Shown piece after piece: positions 11,878 through 20,436 of a stretch of 64,000 nucleotides of DNA (the stretch's first letter is position 1; each line of letters begins with the position of its first letter). The position numbers and the translations under genes were made by a program. The notes beneath the pieces were generated by a model. The model was not told the origin of the DNA, ran no database searches, and saw only the letters and a list, made by a program, of their open reading frames with translations. The stretch lies in assembly GCF_053078305.1 (NCBI RefSeq), contig NZ_CP166879.1; one strand, 5' to 3'.

Positions 11878-12822
11878 TTAAGATTCAGGTGTAAATTGCC
11901 AACGAGTTTCGATAACCAGCGGCCTATCTGGTGTCACCAATTCCGGCGTTAGATTTATTGCGTTAGGTGCCTGAGTCAGCGGGTTAATACAGGTGGCATC
12001 GGGCTGTTTATCAAATACCACCAGACTGTTTGCAGAAGAGATCATGGTCATCGCGAGTTTACCAGGCCACAGTAACTTAACCTTCACCCCGTCATAAAAA
12101 CCAAAACAGTCATCCCAGGGACCGACTTGAGGAGAGATGCGATTTCCAGTTGGCAGTTCATCACTACCCGCTTCTTCTTGCCAGTCCGCATCAAAAAGCA
12201 CCTGCAACGATTCTGTATTTTGCGGAGTCAGCTTTTTCGCAAACCACGGATGCCAGCCTGCGGAGGCCGGGAATGTATCGGCATATGAATGGACTTCCAG
12301 TTGCAAAACCAGCGCATCGTTCTCCAGCAAAAAAGTCTGAATCACTTCCCCTTGCCAAGGCCACGGTGAAGCCAGGGGCATACGTAAAGTCAGGGAATCT
12401 GCTGTTTTGTCGATGATTTCCCACGTTGAGTAACAAGCCATACCATGCAACGCATGTGGTGGTTTATTGGCGGGTAAAGAATAACATTGCCCACCAGCAT
12501 TCAGCGTCGCATTCCCCAGTCGCCCTGCCCACGGCACCATTGGGAAACAGCCATACTGAAAAGCTCTACGCTGCGGCTGCCATTGGCGTAATACTTCAGA
12601 ACCAAATGCCTTTAACGAGGTTATCCTGGCACCATCATGCGGATAAATCTGCAGGTGAATATTGCCTTTTTCCAGCGTCACTAACTCTCCTACAGGCCCA
12701 GGCCATGGCGCGTCAAACGCCTGTTGTAGCGCCAGGTAATGCTCGTTTTTTCGTTCAGTTTTCATGAGATTGTTCCCTGATGTAGCGGTAAGAAGCGGTT
12801 TCTTGTTCATCGGTCGGCTCAA
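11878..12822 (-). CDS. Aldose 1-epimerase (mutarotase) family protein, YihR-like; true start probably at 12765 or 12810
   Basis: 314-aa ORF, mutarotase-like composition; its 5' end overlaps the 3' end of the upstream MFS gene by up to 68 bp. Confidence 0.6.
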   Translation of the reverse strand: MSRPMNKKPLLTATSGNNLMKTERKNEHYLALQQAFDAPWPGPVGELVTLEKGNIHLQIYPHDGARITSLKAFGSEVLRQWQPQRRAFQYGCFPMVPWAGRLGNATLNAGGQCYSLPANKPPHALHGMACYSTWEIIDKTADSLTLRMPLASPWPWQGEVIQTFLLENDALVLQLEVHSYADTFPASAGWHPWFAKKLTPQNTESLQVLFDADWQEEAGSDELPTGNRISPQVGPWDDCFGFYDGVKVKLLWPGKLAMTMISSANSLVVFDKQPDATCINPLTQAPNAINLTPELVTPDRPLVIETRWQFTPES

Positions 12823-14104
12823 TCAGCCAGACGCAAACAAAGGAAAGAACTGAGACAGCAAATAAAAACAGAGCGACATACCACGGTTTTCCTCCCCCTA
12901 GCGCCAGCAAACTTGAGGCGATAAGGGGGCTTAGTCCGCCAAGAATCGCGGAAAATTGATAAGCAAAAGAAAGGCCGGTATATCGTACTTTGGTACCGAA
13001 CATGCGGGTGAAAAGTGTTGGCTGCACGGCAAACATCATCGTCGGACCTAAGTTGTAGCCGAGGATCATACTGCACCAGATGATGAGCGTACTTTTGCTA
13101 TCCAGTAATAAGAAGAAAGGAAACGCGAACAGGACACAAAATCCTGCTCCCGACAAATACAGACTTTTTTGACCTATACGATCTGATAACCATCCAACCA
13201 ATGGACAACTGAAAATACCGATCGCCGAGGCAATCAACATACCCGTCAGGGGAATATCTCGCGATAATGCTAATTGGCTGGAAATATAGACAATACCAAA
13301 GGCGTTAATAATATTAGAGGAGACACTTTCCGCCAGCCTCGCACCCAGTGCCAATAAAATATTTCGTGGATGTTTTTTGAATAATTCAATCAACGGAGGA
13401 ACGGACTTTTCTTTATTATTCGTCGTTTTTTGCTTTTGAAAATCCAGCGTTTCTTCGGTATGCAGGCGGATAAACAGCCCAACGATCAACATCACCGCAG
13501 AAAGCCAAAACGGAATGCGCCATCCCCAGGAGAGAAACTGCTCCGAAGTAAGAAAATGGTTACAGAGAGCAAAAATACCGGTTGCCAGCATAATACCCAC
13601 AGACGCAGCCGTTTGCGGGAGTGAACCTAAGAATCCGCGTCGGGATTCGGGCGCTGATTCTATGGTCATCAATGCCGCTCCACCGTACTCGCCACCAAGA
13701 CCAAAGCCCTGAATCAAACGCAGCACCATTAATACAAGCGGTGCCCAAATGCCAATTTCCTGATACGTCGGAATAAAACCAATCAAAAATGTGGAGCAAC
13801 CGACAATAGCCAGCGTCCAGATAAGTGTTATTTTTCGCCCGATTTTATCGCCAAAATGACCAAAGACGATGCCCCCTAAAGGACGAGTCAGAAAACCGAC
13901 ACCAAAGGTCGCAAAGGAAGCTATAAGACCTATAAAAGGATCGCTGTCTGGATAAAACAGCGGTGCAAATACCAGTCCTGCTGCCGTGCCAAAAATAAAG
14001 AAGTCATACCATTCCATTAACGCGCCTGCGAAACTGCCCATAACGACACGTCTCATGGCTTTACCGGAAAGCCCTTCACGCGGTGCGGGTAACTTTTCAG
14101 ACAT
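12755..14104 (-). CDS. MFS transporter, metabolite:H+ symporter (MHS, ProP/KgtP-like) family
   Basis: 449-aa 12-TM ORF with MEWYDFFIFG and GHFGDKIGRK motifs typical of MHS transporters; not the GPH-type YihO/YihP of the K-12 locus. Confidence 0.75.
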   Translation of the reverse strand: MSEKLPAPREGLSGKAMRRVVMGSFAGALMEWYDFFIFGTAAGLVFAPLFYPDSDPFIGLIASFATFGVGFLTRPLGGIVFGHFGDKIGRKITLIWTLAIVGCSTFLIGFIPTYQEIGIWAPLVLMVLRLIQGFGLGGEYGGAALMTIESAPESRRGFLGSLPQTAASVGIMLATGIFALCNHFLTSEQFLSWGWRIPFWLSAVMLIVGLFIRLHTEETLDFQKQKTTNNKEKSVPPLIELFKKHPRNILLALGARLAESVSSNIINAFGIVYISSQLALSRDIPLTGMLIASAIGIFSCPLVGWLSDRIGQKSLYLSGAGFCVLFAFPFFLLLDSKSTLIIWCSMILGYNLGPTMMFAVQPTLFTRMFGTKVRYTGLSFAYQFSAILGGLSPLIASSLLALGGGKPWYVALFLFAVSVLSFVCVWLIEPTDEQETASYRYIREQSHEN

Positions 14105-14202
14105 AATTTTCCTCTCCTGGTAGGCGAGAAATCTGGGATACGAACCACTAAACGTGGGCAGTTTGAATTAATGCGCATCGGCTTAAGCCGATGCGCATTA
14201 AA

Positions 14203-15636
14203 TTATTTCTTCAATTCAGCCAGAACCTCTGCGTCCTCAGCATCAACATTTGCACCCAGTGGTTCCCAATGAATCAATACGCAGGTCAGGAACCCCAGGA
14301 ATGGCACGATTGCCAACCAGTAAAACGCTTCAGTTTTCAACGCACCCCACAGCATCGGCCAGAAAATGAGTCCTGCAATTGCCCCTGTGCGCATAATAGC
14401 GCGGGCAAATCCGACCCCAGTAGGGCGAATAGCGGGAGGATAAGAGAGTGTGGCAATGGTCATGCCCAGCCCACCAGGACCCGCTGAATGGAAGAAAATA
14501 ATTGATCCCAATAACCCTAAAGACAGCCAGGGATTAGTCGTTGCCAGTGCGCCTAACGACAGCAATGCTAAGGTCACAACAGCAAATCCATACATCGACT
14601 GTCGGCGAGTACCCAGTCGTTGGAGAATAAACGAGCCGATCATCCCGCCTGTCACCCCACAAAGGGCATTCACGACGGCAGAACCGGTCAACGCGCCAGT
14701 AAGCCCGCCACTTATTATTCCCGCCAATGTAAGAGGAAGATAAACACCTACGGCGTTATATTGCCACGCCTGCATGGTTGCCACGACACAGCCAAGAATG
14801 GTGCGTTTGCGGTAACGATCATTAAATAAGATGCCATATCCACCACTGTATTTATTCTCTGCTTTTTCCGAGAATTTCGCTTCTGTTGTACTCGATGCCG
14901 CAACGCGAGCCTGAACACCATAACGTTTTCCCAGAATGTCGCACGCTTCCTGGTAACGCCCGACGCGTGCGGCCCACATTGCGGATTCACCAATAAAGAA
15001 GTAACGCAAAATCATGAAGATGACTGCAAAAATAGCTCCGATGAATATTCCGTAACGCCACAATTGTTCTTCAGCGATACCCGACAGAAGCAGCGGCAAA
15101 AGTACCAAATAAACAACGGTTGTCGAAACATACCAGGCCATTTGCCAGAGGTTGACCGACGTTCCGGTTTTCTTCGACGTTGAACCACGAAGCTCTGCCA
15201 CGGCATTGGTTGCCAAAGGGAAGTCGATGCCTAAACCAAAGCCCATGATGACGCGGCACACCAGCACCCACCAGATACTGGGAGCAATAGCTACCGCTGC
15301 AGCACCGATGGTGCACAGCCCCATGCCAATAATAAATGCCCGCTTTTGCCCAAAGCGGTTTATTACTCGGTTCGCTAATAAACCGCCAATTAACGCGGCG
15401 ATTAATACTGATGCATTGACGGTTGCAGCAAGACCCGGCGAAATGCCGAATTGAGCGGCAATGTATTTATTACCAAACCCCACCATCGCCGCCTGGTAGG
15501 CATCAATCAATATGCCGCCCAAAGCAATAAAAATAACGCCGATACTGGTGTTGATTGCAGAGTTCTTATTAACAATATCAATTACGTCCTGTGGCCGACT
15601 AATTGAATAAGTTGCAGGACTGGTGATTTGACTCAT
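14203..15636 (-). CDS. MFS transporter (sugar-porter / aromatic acid:H+ symporter-like)
   Basis: 477-aa polytopic ORF with MFS-type loop motifs (GQKRAFIIG, LGIDFPLATNAVAEL). Confidence 0.75.
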   Translation of the reverse strand: MSQITSPATYSISRPQDVIDIVNKNSAINTSIGVIFIALGGILIDAYQAAMVGFGNKYIAAQFGISPGLAATVNASVLIAALIGGLLANRVINRFGQKRAFIIGMGLCTIGAAAVAIAPSIWWVLVCRVIMGFGLGIDFPLATNAVAELRGSTSKKTGTSVNLWQMAWYVSTTVVYLVLLPLLLSGIAEEQLWRYGIFIGAIFAVIFMILRYFFIGESAMWAARVGRYQEACDILGKRYGVQARVAASSTTEAKFSEKAENKYSGGYGILFNDRYRKRTILGCVVATMQAWQYNAVGVYLPLTLAGIISGGLTGALTGSAVVNALCGVTGGMIGSFILQRLGTRRQSMYGFAVVTLALLSLGALATTNPWLSLGLLGSIIFFHSAGPGGLGMTIATLSYPPAIRPTGVGFARAIMRTGAIAGLIFWPMLWGALKTEAFYWLAIVPFLGFLTCVLIHWEPLGANVDAEDAEVLAELKK

Positions 15637-15705
15637 CGCAGTGTCCTTTTTAATTGTTGTAGGGTGGCGCTGACGTGACGCAGCGCCAGACAGAGATTTA
15701 GAAAA

Positions 15706-16716
15706 TCATTCCGGCGCAAATTGCAGCATGACCTTTATGGAGTCATTTTGCTGCGCGCGTTCGAATGCCGCCGCTGCATCCTCAATGGCAAATAAATCGG
15801 TAACCAGTTCACTGGTATCAAACCGCCCATCCGCCAGCCATTCGATAACAGCATCGAAATCTTCAGGGATGTACATGCCAGAGTTGAGCAAGTCACGCTC
15901 GAAACGTTGCATCATCGGTAATGGTATTTCACGCGGCCCACTTGGTACGCCCATGCACACGACGGTGCCTCCGGCATATACACGGGTACATGCATCGTTA
16001 AGCGTGGCCTGCGCTGCAACGACATCAATCGCCCCCGTAAATCGCACATCTGCGGCCAGCTCACCTGGTGCCCAAACTTCTGCTGCGCCCAGCTTTAACG
16101 CCAGCGCGCGTTTGGCAGCGTCAGGTTCAATCACGGTAATCTTACCTGCCCCCATAATGCGCAGTGCCTGCACGATGGATAAGCCTATCGTTCCGGCACC
16201 AATCACCAGTACGCTTTCCAGAGAAGCTTTCGGCATTCGGTTAACGCAGTGACGGGCACAAGCCGCCGGTTCGGCAAAGGCCAACACTTTTAGCGGTAAA
16301 GAGGCTGGTGCGACATGGCAATTACGCGCAGGAACAATGTGTTGTGAGCGAGCAAAGCCCGGTGCGCGAAAACCAGCAACCTGCGGTGGTTCACAAAGAT
16401 TAAAACGTCCTGCTTTGCAGGCTCGGCATTCCATGCAAGCCATGATGGGATCGACCACAACATGATCGCCCGGCTGTACATTTTTAACGTCGCTGCCAAC
16501 TTCCGTAACGCGCGCTGCAATTTAATGACCGGGGACGACAGGTGGTTTGGCAAACGGATGACCGCCTTTCAGAACATGCAGATCCGAACCGCATATCCCA
16601 TGGAACACAGGCGCAATCCGCACTTCGTGCGGTTTAAGTTCCTGGTGTGGTACTTCAACATATTGAGTGGTGACTTTCCCAATATCTGAAAATAAAACCT
16701 GGGTAATTTTATCCAT
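15706..16716 (-). pseudogene. Zinc-dependent alcohol dehydrogenase (MDR family) interrupted by a single in-frame TAA
   Basis: N-terminal 64-aa ORF (…CGSDLHVLKGGHPFAKPPVVPGH*) and C-terminal 250-aa ORF are in the same frame, separated only by TAA at 16522..16524 (minus strand). The stop falls where Zn-ADHs carry the Glu of the GHE motif; Rossmann motif VIGAGTIGL lies downstream. Confidence 0.7.
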
Positions 16717-16748
16717 TGTTATTCTCCAGAATCGATATCCATAGGGGA

Positions 16749-17636
16749 TTAGCGTTGCGCGATACCTTCATCGACAATTTCTGCCAACCGTTGTAAACGA
16801 GGAACAGAGACATCGCGCAGCATAATTTGTGGATCTTGTGCACCAACAACCGACGCCCAAACCGCTCGTCCAGCCAGGAAGCCTGACGCACCACCTTTCA
16901 TGGCAATACTTACTGCACGGCCAAAAATATCGGCATCAACGCCAGAAGAAAGAATTACCCACGGCATCTTCATCTGATCGTTAAGTTGCTGACAGGCGGC
17001 AAGTAAGGTTTTTTCATCGCCTTTGCCCCCTAATGGCATCTCGGCTTTGTAAAGATCAGCCTCTGTTCCACCAAGCTCTGCGGCGGCGGCAACAATGGCG
17101 CTTTCACGATCAAAGTCCCAACCGCGACGAGGTGGACGCACCACAGGTTCAATAATGCTAACCAGCCCGGCACTACGGCAGCGACGAACAAATTTATCAA
17201 CCATTGCCAGACGTTCCTCTGCGGGTTCATCTTCACGCCAGAGTACAAGTAATTTCATTGCCTTAGCCCCCATTTCACGGGCTTTATGCGGGTCGACGGA
17301 CATATCTATTTCAACGCTATCAACCGGGATGCCATTACCTGGGATAAAAAGATCGGCAGCGACAATCAGGCCGCAAGAATTAGCAACAGCGCCCTGCTCG
17401 ACTATTTGCTCAAGACAAAATTGTTTATCCGCCAGAACGGCAGAAGCATAAGGAGAAAGGATTCGGGTCGCGGCAACTTTAAAATCGGTGAGTACACTGT
17501 CGGCGATGGGTTTTGGCTGCCCTGCTGCCGCAAACATCAAGCGCATGGCCTCACGCTGATCGACAGCTAACATGGCAAATCCACCACCTGGGCGGGAGAT
17601 ATCTTTCAGCGTAAATGGGGTGAAGTGGGATGACAT
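16749..17636 (-). CDS. Class I aldolase, YihT (sulfofructose-phosphate aldolase)-like, divergent from the K-12 protein
   Basis: 295-aa ORF containing [40 protein letters not shown] and [13 protein letters not shown], blocks I recall as shared with E. coli YihT, with many substitutions elsewhere. Confidence 0.7.
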
Positions 17637-17660
17637 AGAAACTCCTGTTAATAGATAAAA

Positions 17661-18560
17661 TTAAAGACCAGCCTGCTGGCGAACCTGATTTAGCAGGGCA
17701 CTCCAGTCCTGCCGCCCTTTGCCGTCTTGACTTGCTGCAGCGTAATAACTTTCTGCTGCAATCCCCATATTGAGCGGTGCCCCCGTCTCCCGAGCGACGT
17801 CAACTGCAATACGCAGATCTTTCAACGCCAGATCCACCATGAAGGCGGGTGAAAGATCGCCTTTCAGCACTTTGCCAGGCCAGGTGGTCGTAAAATGTCC
17901 TTTCCCTGCTGCCGTACCACTCATCACCTTAATTGCGACATCAAGATTTAATCCCAGTGACTCACATAACACAGCGGCCTCGGAGGACAGCGCATTAAGC
18001 GCAATGCTCATATAGTTGTTAATTAGCTTCACGCGGATCCCCATTCCAGGGCCGCCAGCCTCGACCAGCTCATTACCCATGCACATGAGAATCGGGCGTG
18101 CACGTGCAATCTGCTCATCAGTGCCACCCGCTAAAATCAGCAATGTGCCATCAATCGCATTCACGGACGTTCTGCCCACGGGGGCGTCCATCATACTGAT
18201 GCCTTTTTCTTGTAACTCCCGTATTAATGCATCGGTCTGTAAGGGATGAATAGTCGACATATCAATCAATAACGCGTCAGATGAAACAGCCTCACAGACG
18301 CCTTTTTCCCCCAACAGAACCTGTCGAACAATGTCACCATTGGGAAGCATAGTGATGATAAATTCAGCGCCTGCTGCTGCTTCCGCTGGGGTTTGTGCCG
18401 CAGTGGCCCCCTGCGTAACTAGCGCATCGACGGCCAGTGCATTGACATCAAATACCTGCAATGAATGCCCTTTATGCAATAGATTGTTAGCCATTGGGCT
18501 ACCCATCTGCCCCAGCCCGAGAAATGCAATGGTTGCCATGAATACTCTCCTGTCTGACAT
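17661..18560 (-). CDS. NAD(P)-dependent beta-hydroxyacid dehydrogenase, YihU (sulfolactaldehyde reductase)-like, divergent; alternative start 18539
   Basis: Rossmann motif [14 protein letters not shown] near the N-terminus plus [21 protein letters not shown] and [13 protein letters not shown] blocks; roughly 70% identical to my recollection of K-12 YihU. ORF track extends further upstream to 18740. Confidence 0.7.
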
Positions 18561-18711
18561 TGACAAAATAATGACAATTGAAAATTCGTTTTCGTCTGTT
18601 TTTGAGCATATTTGTAATTTATGTTCAAAAACACGACATACATCACTAATTTGATCATTTGTGTCATTTAAATTGACCAAAGACGACAAAATTAAACAGG
18701 ACAAGACAAAT

Positions 18712-19608
18712 ATGACCAGAATTGCATGCGTGGGTATCACAGTTCAGGACAGGATTTATTCTTTGCCCACTCTGCCGGAGGGCGGCGGGAAATATCAGGC
18801 AAATCATTATCTTGAGATTGGTGGCGGCCCGGCAGCAACAGCCGCTGTTGCAATCGCAAGGCTTGGCGTGGAAGTTGATTTCATCGGTCGCGTCGGCGAT
18901 GACAGTTGTGGAAATACCTTACTTGCAGAACTTGAGGGTTGGGGCGTCAATACAGCATTTTGCCGCCGATATCCTAACGCCCGTTCGTCGCAATCAGCGA
19001 TCCTCGTTGATCAGCATGGCGAACGGATTATCGTTAATTATCCAAGTCCTGATCTCGGTACTGATGCCGAATGGTTAGAAGCGATCGATTTCTCTCGTTA
19101 TGATCTGATTCTGGCCGATGTTCGCTGGCATAGCGGTACTGAAAAAGCATTCTCGCTAGCGCGCCTTGCGGGTGTGACAACGCTTTTAGACGCCGATATG
19201 ACACCGCAGGATATTTCTCCACTTGTCGCGCTTGCCGATCACGCCGTGTTCTCAACGCCAGGGCTGAAACGCATGACTGGCCTGCAGTCACCTGAAGAAG
19301 GTTTGTTCCAGGCAACGACACAAACAGCAGGTAAAGTGTATGTTACGCTGGGTTCTGAAGGATCGTTGTGGATTGAAGATGGTCATTTGTGTCAACAGGA
19401 GGCATTTTCTGTCAATGTGGTTGATACCACTGGAGCAGGCGATGTTTTTCACGGCGCACTCGCGGTAGCGTTGGCAGAAAAAATGCCAACAAAAGAGGCT
19501 ATTCGTTTTGCCAGTGCGGTTGCCGCGATGAAATGTACCCAGCCTGGCGGTCGGGCCGGCATTCCTAATCGTGAGCAAACCGAATCATTTTTGTCACTTT
19601 ATGCGTAA
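18712..19608 (+). CDS. PfkB-family sugar kinase, YihV (sulfofructose kinase)-like, divergent
   Basis: Starts [16 protein letters not shown]; PfkB signature [17 protein letters not shown] near the C-terminus. Transcribed divergently from the yihU-like gene. Confidence 0.7.
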
Positions 19609-19647
19609 AATGGTAAACATCTACCGAGGAGGGGCAAGGGAGTATTC

Positions 19648-20436
19648 ATGAGTATCATCGAAGTGACAGGTAATCCACGCCATGACCAACTCGTTCATCT
19701 AATCGCAGAACGCGGTTATATGAATATTGAAGAACTGGCACAACTGCTGGATGTTTCAACGCAAACCGTGCGCCGGGATATCCGAAAACTCAGTGAGCAG
19801 GGCTTGATCACCCGTCATCATGGAGGGGCCGGGCGCGTCTCCAGCGTCATGAATACCGCTTTTGAGCAACGGGAACTTTCGCTCACCGCCGAGAAACGGG
19901 CGATCGCTGAGGCAGTCGCCGATTACCTTCCCGAACGCTGTACCGTCTTTATCACCATCGGTACAACCGTAGAAGCCGTTGCCAGGGCATTACTCAACCG
20001 GCGTGATTTACGCATTATCACTAACAGCCTACGTGTGGCACAGATTCTTTATAAGAATCAGGATATTGAAGTGATGGTGCCGGGAGGCACTTTACGCGCT
20101 CATAACGGCGGGATTATCGGCCCAGGAGCCGTGGATTTTATTGAAGGCTTCCGCGCAGATTATTTAATCACCAGTATAGGTGCCATTGAACATGACGGCA
20201 CCCTACTGGAATTTGATGTAAATGAAGCGTTAGTCGCGAGAACGATGATTAAACATGCGCGGAATACATTGTTAGTGGCCGATCATACGAAGTTTGCCGC
20301 GTCTGCTGCCGTTTCAATTGGCAATGCACGGAATGTCAGGGCTTTTTTTACTGATGCCCCGCCTCCCAATTCTTTCTGCCAGTTGTTAAGTGAAGAGAAT
20401 GTTGAACTGGTGGTTGCCGAGCAGGAAGTTTCCTGA
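19648..20436 (+). CDS. DeoR-family transcriptional regulator, YihW/CsqR-like
   Basis: 262-aa ORF with an N-terminal HTH (EELAQLLDVSTQTVRRDIRKL) and a DeoR C-terminal sugar-phosphate-binding domain. Confidence 0.75.
   Translation: MSIIEVTGNPRHDQLVHLIAERGYMNIEELAQLLDVSTQTVRRDIRKLSEQGLITRHHGGAGRVSSVMNTAFEQRELSLTAEKRAIAEAVADYLPERCTVFITIGTTVEAVARALLNRRDLRIITNSLRVAQILYKNQDIEVMVPGGTLRAHNGGIIGPGAVDFIEGFRADYLITSIGAIEHDGTLLEFDVNEALVARTMIKHARNTLLVADHTKFAASAAVSIGNARNVRAFFTDAPPPNSFCQLLSEENVELVVAEQEVS

What the first reader, a model, noticed from the sequence alone, without database searches (positions are those of the whole stretch)
16459..16524. Zinc alcohol dehydrogenase inactivated by a single in-frame TAA at the conserved GHE position
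The two ADH ORF fragments (16522..16716 and 15706..16458) are in the same frame; the only interruption is TAA at 16522..16524. The flanking peptide …VVPGH*IAARVTEVGSDVKNVQPGDHVVV… places the stop where MDR-family dehydrogenases have the Glu of the GHE zinc-site motif, consistent with a GAA-to-TAA point mutation. This looks like a recent pseudogenisation of one step of the variant yih operon and could be polar on the downstream transporters and epimerase.
Basis: seen in the sequence. Interest (0 to 1): 0.5.

Follow-up and report, generated by a model that had tools for sequence, protein, structure and literature searches.

The report
Nonsense-mutated dehydrogenase gene in E. coli
One clonal E. 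coli lineage carries a G-to-T change that puts a stop codon at an invariant zinc-binding glutamate of a sugar-pathway dehydrogenase, making an ordinary recent pseudogene in an otherwise intact accessory operon.

Summary
On the minus strand, an ATG at 16716 opens a 336-codon zinc-dependent (MDR-family) dehydrogenase gene ending at 15706. Its only interruption is TAA at 16524..16522, codon 65.

- **Relatives carry GAA.** A 44-base core with GAA is found in 1325 of 5426 complete E. coli genomes. The same core with TAA is found in none. Orthologues in 21 other species are uninterrupted, and Glu65 is invariant in them. It aligns with the GHE glutamate of solved homologues.
- **It is not a read error.** The same TAA is in an independent isolate assembly (1 difference in 20,195 bases) and in an SRA-run assembly (2 differences in 12,545 bases).
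- **The rest of the window is clean.** All 49 other genes compared are full length.
- **No rescue is apparent.** The downstream in-frame start codons have no ribosome-binding site, and any restart product would lack the catalytic ligands Cys42, His64 and Glu65.

Polarity on the downstream transporters is plausible but untested.

The more interesting point is the context. The published "short yih cassette" is really a conserved eight-gene, sulfoglycolysis-like cluster, and this dehydrogenase is a constant member of it.

The parts
15706..16716 (-). Whole pseudogene: 336-codon zinc-dependent MDR-family dehydrogenase, allele WP_000357967.1 plus Y39H plus E65*.
   Evidence: Translation. Pfam ADH_N residues 28-137 and ADH_zinc_N residues 177-295 on the repaired protein. 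Intact 1011-nt CDS at the same coordinates in PS10-3.
16522..16524 (-). Premature TAA stop, codon 65, replacing GAA (Glu65, the E of the GHE zinc-site motif).
   Evidence: GAA core in 1325 complete genomes and TAA core in none. Glu65 invariant in 21 orthologues.
16525..16716 (-). Translated 5' fragment, 64 codons. It contains Cys42 (16593..16591) and His64 (16527..16525) but only part of the GroES-like domain.
16600..16602 (-). Codon 39, CAT (His). Every other sequence examined has TAT (Tyr), including the other TAA carriers. This is a private second change in the window.
   Evidence: Position 39 is Y/F/M/L/V, never H, in 21 orthologues.
15706..16521 (-). Untranslated remainder of the gene, codons 66-336 plus the stop. 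Still fully in frame with no other lesion.
16441..16458 (-). First in-frame start codons after the stop: GTG codon 87 (16458..16456) and ATG codon 92 (16443..16441). Neither has a Shine-Dalgarno sequence.
   Evidence: Anti-SD duplex energies are -2.9 and -2.2 kcal/mol, against -6.4 for the native start and -5.3 for the next gene.
16724..16727 (-). Native Shine-Dalgarno GGAG of the dehydrogenase gene, intact.
16237..16396 (-). C-rich, G-poor stretch of the now untranslated mRNA. A possible Rho-loading region; inferred only.
   Evidence: C/G ratio is 1.25-1.67 in 80-nt windows, against 0.6-1.1 elsewhere in the gene.
14203..15636 (-). Downstream MFS transporter 1, intact and identical to PS10-3. 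It has its own SD, 69 nt after the dehydrogenase stop.
12755..14104 (-). Downstream MFS transporter 2 (metabolite/H+ symporter family), intact.
11878..12765 (-). Downstream aldose 1-epimerase, intact. Only 27% identical to K-12 YihR.
16749..17636 (-). Upstream class I aldolase, 67% identical to YihT, intact.
17661..18539 (-). First gene of the operon: YihU-type sulfolactaldehyde reductase, 73% identical to YihU, intact.
   Evidence: 581 bits against a cut-off of 348.
18712..20436 (+). Divergent pair: PfkB kinase (18712..19608, 68% identical to YihV) and DeoR regulator (19648..20436, 72% identical to CsqR). Both intact.

Best explanation
This is a genuine, inherited loss-of-function allele of an accessory catabolic gene.

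Shown:
- A single G-to-T transversion changed codon 65 of a zinc-dependent MDR-family dehydrogenase from GAA (Glu) to TAA.
- That Glu sits next to the zinc-binding His in the GHE motif.
- Translation from the intact native start therefore ends after 64 residues. The product has only part of the catalytic domain and no Rossmann nucleotide-binding domain.
- The allele is confined to one tight clone and is recent. Nothing else in the gene or in the seven neighbouring genes of the cluster is broken.

Inferred:
- No enzyme is made. Re-initiation at codons 87, 92 or 95 is unlikely because none has a ribosome-binding site. Any such product would lack the catalytic zinc ligands Cys42, His64 and Glu65.
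- The 886 nt of transcript between the stop and the next start codon is unprotected by ribosomes. Rho could terminate there and lower expression of the two MFS transporters and the epimerase.
- The dehydrogenase supplies the ketose substrate for the sulfofructose-kinase-like enzyme, taking the place of the YihS isomerase. If so, its loss blocks entry into the pathway.
For: - **Stop and frame:**
- **Ancestral GAA:** the closest intact allele differs only by E65* and Y39H. The 44-nt GAA core occurs in 1325 of 5426 complete E. coli genomes (1311 exact). The 46-nt TAA core occurs in none.
- **Constraint:** 21 orthologues at 56-99% identity, from Gamma- and Alphaproteobacteria, are all uninterrupted ORFs of 333-338 aa. 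C42, H64, E65, E149 and the four structural-zinc cysteines are invariant in them. GHE aligns with GHE of 4ilk, 4ej6 and 1e3j.
- **Not an error:** the same TAA on the same haplotype is in GCA_018683495.1 (1 difference in 20,195 nt; the tool reports 4 samples with this contig) and in Logan SRR30307805 (2 differences in 12,545 nt; 3 samples). All 49 other genes compared across the window have no indel or internal stop.
- **No restart signal:**
- **Recency:** the other seven cluster genes are full length with 0-2 amino-acid differences from PS10-3.
Against: - No transcript or protein data exist, so complete absence of product and polarity are both inferred.
- The exact 64-aa product of the window (with His39) is not in the 15-billion-protein collection. 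The window's own genome is therefore not independently confirmed; only its sister assemblies are.
- One low-coverage metagenome contig (L018) carries TAA on a different haplotype. That could mean recurrence or recombination rather than a single origin. It could equally be a read error picked out by the exact-peptide look-up.
- The substrate of the enzyme is unknown, so the phenotypic cost cannot be stated.
Confidence: 0.93

Rival explanations
1. Sequencing or assembly error: the true sequence is GAA and the gene is intact.
For: No complete RefSeq E. coli genome has the TAA. The window's exact 64-aa product is absent from the protein collection.
Against: The identical TAA occurs in independent assemblies that are 99.98-99.995% identical to the window over 12-20 kb, and the tool reports several samples for each. 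It is a substitution, not a homopolymer indel. The other 49 genes compared show no indel or stop.
Confidence: 0.02
2. A genuine split-gene arrangement: two polypeptides (64 aa and about 245-250 aa) are both made and reconstitute an active enzyme.
For: Gene callers do call a 245-aa C-terminal product from ATG 16443 (P0002, STK41801.1). It is seen on at least 24 contigs.
Against: - Those contigs carry different, unrelated lesions or scaffold gaps: a frameshift, a stop at codon 78, a Mu-like insertion, runs of N. They are not a conserved split.
- The gene is a single ORF in all 21 orthologues in other species, and the GAA core is present in 1325 complete E. coli genomes.
- No Shine-Dalgarno sequence precedes codons 87, 92 or 95.
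- Residues 65-86 or 65-91 would be missing, including the invariant Glu65.
Confidence: 0.02
3. Read-through or suppression of the UAA gives enough full-length protein for function.
For: None from the sequence. It cannot be excluded without the whole genome, because only tRNA-Ala and tRNA-Ile lie in the window.
Against: From general knowledge, UAA is read by both release factors and is the least leaky stop codon in E. coli. Near-cognate decoding would mostly insert Gln, Lys or Tyr. Glu65 is invariant in 21 orthologues.
Confidence: 0.02
4. The loss is adaptive rather than neutral decay. Inactivating this dehydrogenase, or damping the operon through polarity, was selected in this lineage.
For: - Both differences from the nearest intact allele are non-synonymous. 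Across the 49 other genes the ratio is 37 amino-acid-changing to 291 silent differences.
- The only two SNPs separating three TAA carriers over 12-20 kb both fall in the first 120 nt of this gene.
- Other lineages carry independent lesions in the same gene or operon: an IS element in the aldolase plus a frameshift (L003), a stop at codon 78 (L010), and a Mu-like insertion (L011).
- In Nissle 1917 the cassette was not induced by sulfoquinovose (PMC12608037).
Against: The numbers are tiny and were noticed post hoc. One of the two SNPs is synonymous. The GAA core is found in 1325 of the 1327 complete genomes that carry the locus. Sporadic loss of accessory catabolic genes is expected under drift.
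Confidence: 0.12

Closest known systems
Zinc-dependent medium-chain dehydrogenases/reductases, polyol/threonine dehydrogenase branch (E. coli RspB 4ilk, whitefly ketose reductase 1e3j, sorbitol and L-threonine dehydrogenases)
   Same: Same two-domain architecture, ADH_N plus ADH_zinc_N. The GICGSD cysteine, the GHE motif, the four-cysteine structural zinc loop and the GAGTIG nucleotide-binding loop are all present. Best PDB E-values are 2e-37 to 4e-34.
   Different: No curated NCBIfam equivalog reaches its cut-off; the best is 165 bits against 376, so substrate specificity is unassigned. In this window the E of GHE is a stop codon, so no enzyme of this family can be made.
[quoted passage not shown] 2025, PMC12608037)
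   Same: Same chromosomal site between yihN and yihX. Reversed orientation relative to K-12. YihT/U/V/W homologues are 67-73% identical to K-12's; the paper reports 72% for YihW.
   Different: The paper calls it a truncated yihTUVW form and does not mention the dehydrogenase, the two MFS transporters or the epimerase. Here these four genes are part of one conserved eight-gene cluster. The window's copy also carries the nonsense mutation.
Sulfo-EMP sulfoquinovose pathway of E. coli K-12 (ompL-yihOPQRSTUVW)
   Same: The kinase, class I aldolase and reductase keep every published sulfonate-pocket and catalytic residue checked (K27-N109-R138-D244; K193-R253; N174-S178). The regulator is of the DeoR type.
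   Different: There is no sulfoquinovosidase (YihQ), no isomerase (YihS) and no GPH transporters (YihO/P). A Zn-dehydrogenase, two MFS transporters and a distant mutarotase stand in their place. The cassette was not induced by sulfoquinovose in Nissle 1917 (PMC12608037).
Classical polar nonsense mutations in E. coli operons (Rho-dependent polarity; from general knowledge)
   Same: An early stop (codon 65 of 336) leaves about 0.9 kb of untranslated mRNA upstream of three more genes. That stretch contains a C-rich, G-poor segment.
   Different: No expression data exist, so polarity here is only a prediction.

Membership tests
MDR zinc-dependent alcohol/polyol dehydrogenase | GroES-like catalytic domain (Pfam PF08240) plus Rossmann domain (PF00107) | tested here: met
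   On the repaired allele: ADH_N E=2.9e-26 (residues 28-137) and ADH_zinc_N E=2.9e-17 (residues 177-295).
MDR zinc-dependent alcohol/polyol dehydrogenase | Catalytic zinc ligands: Cys of GICGSD, and His-Glu of GHE | tested here: not met
   Cys42 and His64 are encoded, but codon 65 is TAA in the window. The ancestral allele and all 21 orthologues have Glu. The window therefore holds a pseudogene of this family, not a functional member.
MDR zinc-dependent alcohol/polyol dehydrogenase | Structural zinc loop with four cysteines, and a GxGxxG nucleotide-binding loop | tested here: met
   C94, C97, C100, C108 and G173-G175-G178 are invariant in the orthologues and still encoded downstream of the stop.
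Pseudogene by nonsense mutation | In-frame stop inside an otherwise collinear, full-length homologue of an intact gene | tested here: met
   1011 of 1011 nt align without gaps to the PS10-3 gene, with 2 substitutions, one of which creates the stop.
Pseudogene by nonsense mutation | Orthologues in relatives are intact at that codon | tested here: met
   The GAA core is in 1325 complete E. coli genomes and the TAA core in none. 21 of 21 other species are intact.
Pseudogene by nonsense mutation | The allele is heritable, not an artefact of one assembly | tested here: met
   The same TAA on the same haplotype is in GCA_018683495.1 and in SRR30307805-derived contigs.
Pseudogene by nonsense mutation | No functional product (no read-through, restart or suppression) | not testable with these tools
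   Only indirect evidence: no SD before the downstream start codons and no suppressor tRNA in the window. Proteomics is needed.
Short yih cassette (Kaznadzey et al. 2025) | yihT/U/V/W homologues between yihN and yihX, inverted relative to K-12, without yihOPQRS | tested here: met
   compared with the description in PMC12608037.
Sulfo-EMP pathway gene cluster | Sulfoquinovosidase (YihQ) and SQ-SF isomerase (YihS or SqvD) | tested here: not met
   No YihQ or YihS homologue was found in the E. coli cluster or within 9 kb in any of the 21 related loci. SqvD was not searched for.
Sulfo-EMP pathway gene cluster | SF kinase with the K-R-N sulfonate triad; SFP aldolase with the Schiff-base Lys and the sulfonate Arg; SLA reductase with the Asn174/Ser178 pocket | tested here: met
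   All listed residues are conserved in pairwise alignments to K-12 proteins. The residue lists come from PMC8006165. The YihU-type equivalog scores 581 bits against a cut-off of 348.

The most novel reading that the evidence does not exclude
The gene hit by this stop codon may be the entry enzyme of an undescribed sulfoglycolysis-like route.

- The 'short yih cassette' is not a truncated remnant. It is a complete eight-gene cluster conserved in synteny across Enterobacterales, Vibrio and Alphaproteobacteria.
- In that cluster a Zn-dehydrogenase, a distant mutarotase and two MFS transporters replace sulfoquinovosidase, the YihS isomerase and the GPH transporters.
- They would feed a sulfofructose-type kinase, aldolase and reductase trio that keeps all sulfonate-pocket residues.

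The TAA lineage would then be a natural knockout of the first committed step. That would be useful for finding the unknown substrate.
Probability: 0.4. Interest if true: 0.55.

Novelty: new member of a known kind. Interest (0 to 1): 0.13.

Why it matters
By itself it matters little. It is one more lineage-specific nonsense pseudogene in an accessory E. coli operon, useful mainly as a clonal marker and as an annotation note.

It has indirect value. The inactivated gene is a constant member of a widely conserved cluster whose substrate is unknown. The only paper found on this cassette treats it as a truncated sulfoquinovose cassette. A natural null allele, paired with near-isogenic intact strains such as those carrying WP_000357967.1, is a ready-made genetic control for working out what the cluster metabolises. 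It could also test whether an early nonsense codon silences the downstream transporters through Rho.

Tried and rejected
- **Exact 50-mer with TAA in one-genome-per-species genome contigs:** no hit. This is uninformative, because only one E. coli genome is held there.
- **Exact look-up of the window's 64-aa and 250-aa products:** absent. The 245-aa product from ATG 16443 led to the carrier assemblies instead.
- **The 23 contigs 'carrying' the 64-aa Tyr39 peptide:** at first this looked like wide spread of the TAA allele. Seven of the ten places shown (L015-L017, L019-L022) are contigs that end at or just after codon 64. Where bases remain after codon 64 they read G or GA, and three contigs end exactly at codon 64. 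These are a selection artefact of exact-peptide look-up, not carriers.
- **Contigs giving the same 245-aa fragment:** several turned out to have scaffold gaps of N or probable long-read indels (L005, L006, L008, L009). They were not counted as real lesions.
- **H56, annotated 'zinc-binding dehydrogenase':** suspected to be a truncated copy, but it is a full-length CDS.
- **Promoter scan of 15400-18800:** it found no sigma-70-like site at all, not even in the divergent control region. It says nothing about an internal promoter for the transporters.
- **Literature:** searches for the assembly accession and for sulfo-alditol intermediates found nothing relevant. Term searches in three sulfoglycolysis papers turned up no description of a dehydrogenase-type cluster.
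- **The 614-aa ORF at 6623-8467:** NCBIfam and PADLOC scans gave no hit.

Full report
**1. The observation**

The window is E. coli chromosome, running from fdoGHI through the yih region, glnALG, polA and an rrn operon to fadBA, tat and ubi. It is collinear with strain PS10-3 at about 99.2% identity.

On the minus strand an ATG at 16716, preceded by GGAG at 16727..16724, opens a reading frame that runs to the stop at 15706. It has 336 codons and one interruption: TAA at 16524..16522, codon 65. The context is ...PPVVPGH*IAARVTEVGSDV....

**2. What the gene is**

The repaired protein has the two domains of zinc-dependent medium-chain dehydrogenases: ADH_N (residues 28-137, E=2.9e-26) and ADH_zinc_N (residues 177-295, E=2.9e-17).

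Its best solved relatives are E. coli RspB (4ilk, E=2e-37), a putative zinc-binding dehydrogenase (4ej6) and whitefly ketose reductase (1e3j). In all three alignments the query's GHE lies on the homologue's GHE. In 1e3j that is His66-Glu67, and Cys42 aligns with Cys41. To my knowledge those residues are the catalytic zinc ligands in that branch of the family. That point rests on established knowledge and was not tested here.

No curated NCBIfam equivalog reaches its cut-off (best 165 bits against 376). The substrate is therefore unassigned.

**3. Comparison with relatives**

The locus is present in 1327 of 5426 complete E. coli genomes. In the records examined the gene is annotated as a single 1011-nt CDS.

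The nearest allele (PS10-3, WP_000357967.1) differs from the window at two bases only: codon 65 GAA to TAA, and codon 39 TAT to CAT.

I then searched with a core sequence that is conserved across the haplotypes:
- The 44-mer with GAA is found in 1325 genomes, 1311 of them exactly.
- The 46-mer with TAA is found in none.
- A 71-mer search gave the same answer.

Outside E. coli, 21 orthologous loci were recovered at 56-99% identity. They come from Citrobacter, Phytobacter, Mixta, Enterobacter, Erwinia, Edaphovirga, Leminorella, Budvicia, Trabulsiella, Tenebrionibacter, Pantoea, Vibrio, Roseospira, Pleomorphomonas and an alphaproteobacterial MAG. All encode uninterrupted proteins of 333-338 aa. 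C42, H64, E65, E149 and the four structural-zinc cysteines are invariant. The stop therefore replaces an invariant residue, and the ancestral codon was GAA.

**4. A real allele, not an error**

The 245-aa C-terminal product that a gene caller would predict from ATG 16443 is in the public protein collection. It led to contigs that encode it.
- GCA_018683495.1 (JAGEXF010000020.1) has the same TAA. It differs from the window by a single base in 20,195: the codon-39 site, where it has the usual TAT.
- A Logan assembly of SRR30307805 also has TAA, with two differences in 12,545 bases.
- The tool reports 4 and 3 samples with those very contigs, plus further similar places it did not show.

The window itself is clean. 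The 49 other genes compared with PS10-3 have no indel and no internal stop. They carry 37 amino-acid-changing and 291 silent differences.

One caution applies. Most contigs returned for the 64-aa peptide simply end at or just after codon 64. Where any bases remain they read G or GA. They are an artefact of exact-sequence look-up, not carriers.

**5. Not a two-gene arrangement**

The first in-frame starts after the stop are GTG codon 87, ATG codon 92 and ATG codon 95. Their anti-Shine-Dalgarno pairing energies are -2.9, -2.2 and -1.5 kcal/mol. The native start has -6.4 and the next gene -5.3.

Any restart product would lack Cys42, His64 and Glu65. The other public contigs that yield the same 245-aa fragment have unrelated lesions or scaffold gaps, not a conserved split. 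No tRNA other than the rrn spacer Ala and Ile genes lies in the window.

**6. Mechanism and consequences**

Shown: a G-to-T transversion creates UAA at codon 65 of 336. The remainder of the gene and the other seven genes of the cluster are intact. The confirmed carriers are nearly identical to one another. Together these indicate a recent event in one clone.

Inferred: a 64-residue fragment cannot fold into the catalytic domain, so the allele is null. The stop also leaves 886 nt of untranslated mRNA before the next start codon (15636, with its own SD, 69 nt after the natural stop). A C-rich, G-poor stretch lies at 16396-16237, with a C/G ratio up to 1.67. Classical Rho-dependent polarity on MFS1, MFS2 and the epimerase is therefore plausible but untested. 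The promoter scan was uninformative.

**7. Context**

The cluster occupies the yih site between yihN and yihX. Compared with K-12:
- The regulator is 72% identical to CsqR, the kinase 68% to YihV, the reductase 73% to YihU and the aldolase 67% to YihT.
- The epimerase is only 27% identical to YihR.
- The dehydrogenase and both MFS transporters have no counterpart in the K-12 cassette.

This is the "short yih cassette" of Kaznadzey et al. 2025 (PMC12608037). That paper describes it as a truncated yihTUVW form and reports that sulfoquinovose does not induce it in Nissle 1917. It does not mention the other four genes.

In all 21 related species the same eight functions are syntenic, and dehydrogenase-MFS-MFS-epimerase are always together. 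No YihS or YihQ homologue lies within 9 kb. In the three loci checked among those without a class I aldolase hit, a class II ketose-bisphosphate aldolase sits in the cluster.

The kinase, aldolase and reductase keep every published sulfonate-pocket residue that I checked. I therefore infer, with modest confidence, that the dehydrogenase provides the ketose for a sulfofructose-type kinase, in place of the isomerase. On that reading the nonsense mutation blocks entry into the pathway.

**8. Loose ends**

- The only SNPs among three TAA carriers are window 16602 (Y39H) and L014's synonymous change at 16699. Both lie in the first 120 nt of this gene. This is striking, but n=2 and it was noticed post hoc.
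- A 1.5x-coverage metagenome contig (L018) has TAA on another haplotype. I cannot tell recurrence from error.
- Other lineages show independent damage to the same operon: an IS element in the aldolase plus a +1G frameshift in an NCTC isolate, a stop at codon 78, and a Mu-like insertion.

**9. Verdict**

This is an ordinary, recent, lineage-restricted nonsense pseudogene and scores low on interest. The cluster it belongs to deserves more attention than the mutation does.

Noticed in passing
window 11878-20436; loci L026-L046: The published 'short/truncated yih cassette' is an eight-gene cluster: DeoR regulator, PfkB kinase, YihU-like reductase, aldolase, Zn-dehydrogenase, two MFS transporters and aldose 1-epimerase. 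It is conserved in synteny in 21 other species of Gamma- and Alphaproteobacteria. No YihS or YihQ lies nearby, class I and class II aldolases are swapped between species, and all checked sulfonate-pocket residues are retained. It looks like an undescribed dehydrogenase-dependent entry into a sulfo-EMP-like route.
   Followed up: partly
window 16600-16602 and 16699: The window has a private Y39H change (TAT to CAT) in the dead gene's 5' fragment. Another TAA carrier (L014) has a private synonymous change at codon 6. These are the only differences among three carriers over 12-20 kb, and both lie within 120 nt.
   Followed up: partly
L018 (ENA ERZ28521506, NODE_13810, coverage 1.5): The same TAA sits on a different haplotype. 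There are 11 differences in 2092 nt, one of them only 25 nt from the stop, and several match other E. coli alleles. It could be an independent hit, recombination, or a read error selected by the exact-peptide look-up.
   Followed up: partly
L003 (NCTC isolate GCA_900449855.1), L010, L011: Independent lesions in the same operon in other strains. L003 has an IS element inside the aldolase, a +1G frameshift after nt 245 of the dehydrogenase and a split MFS1. L010 has a stop at codon 78. L011 has a Mu-like prophage inserted at about nt 218.
   Followed up: partly
window 6623-8467 (minus strand): A 614-aa ORF between fabY and yiiE has no Pfam, NCBIfam or PADLOC match. The full region is present in about 1061 of 5426 complete E. 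coli genomes, where it is annotated 'transposase | hypothetical protein'. K-12-like strains lack it.
   Followed up: partly
window 15665-15688 (minus strand): A GC-rich hairpin with no T tract lies in the 69-nt spacer between the dehydrogenase stop and the MFS1 start. The spacer folds at -16.2 kcal/mol, z = -2.0 against shuffles. It may be a transcript-stabilising or processing element.
   Followed up: no
window 5-7 (plus strand): There is an in-frame TGA in fdoG (V-U-HGPTVASL), at the position that the PS10-3 annotation reads through as one 3051-nt CDS. This is the expected selenocysteine codon, a legitimate recoded stop that contrasts with the TAA studied here.
   Followed up: yes
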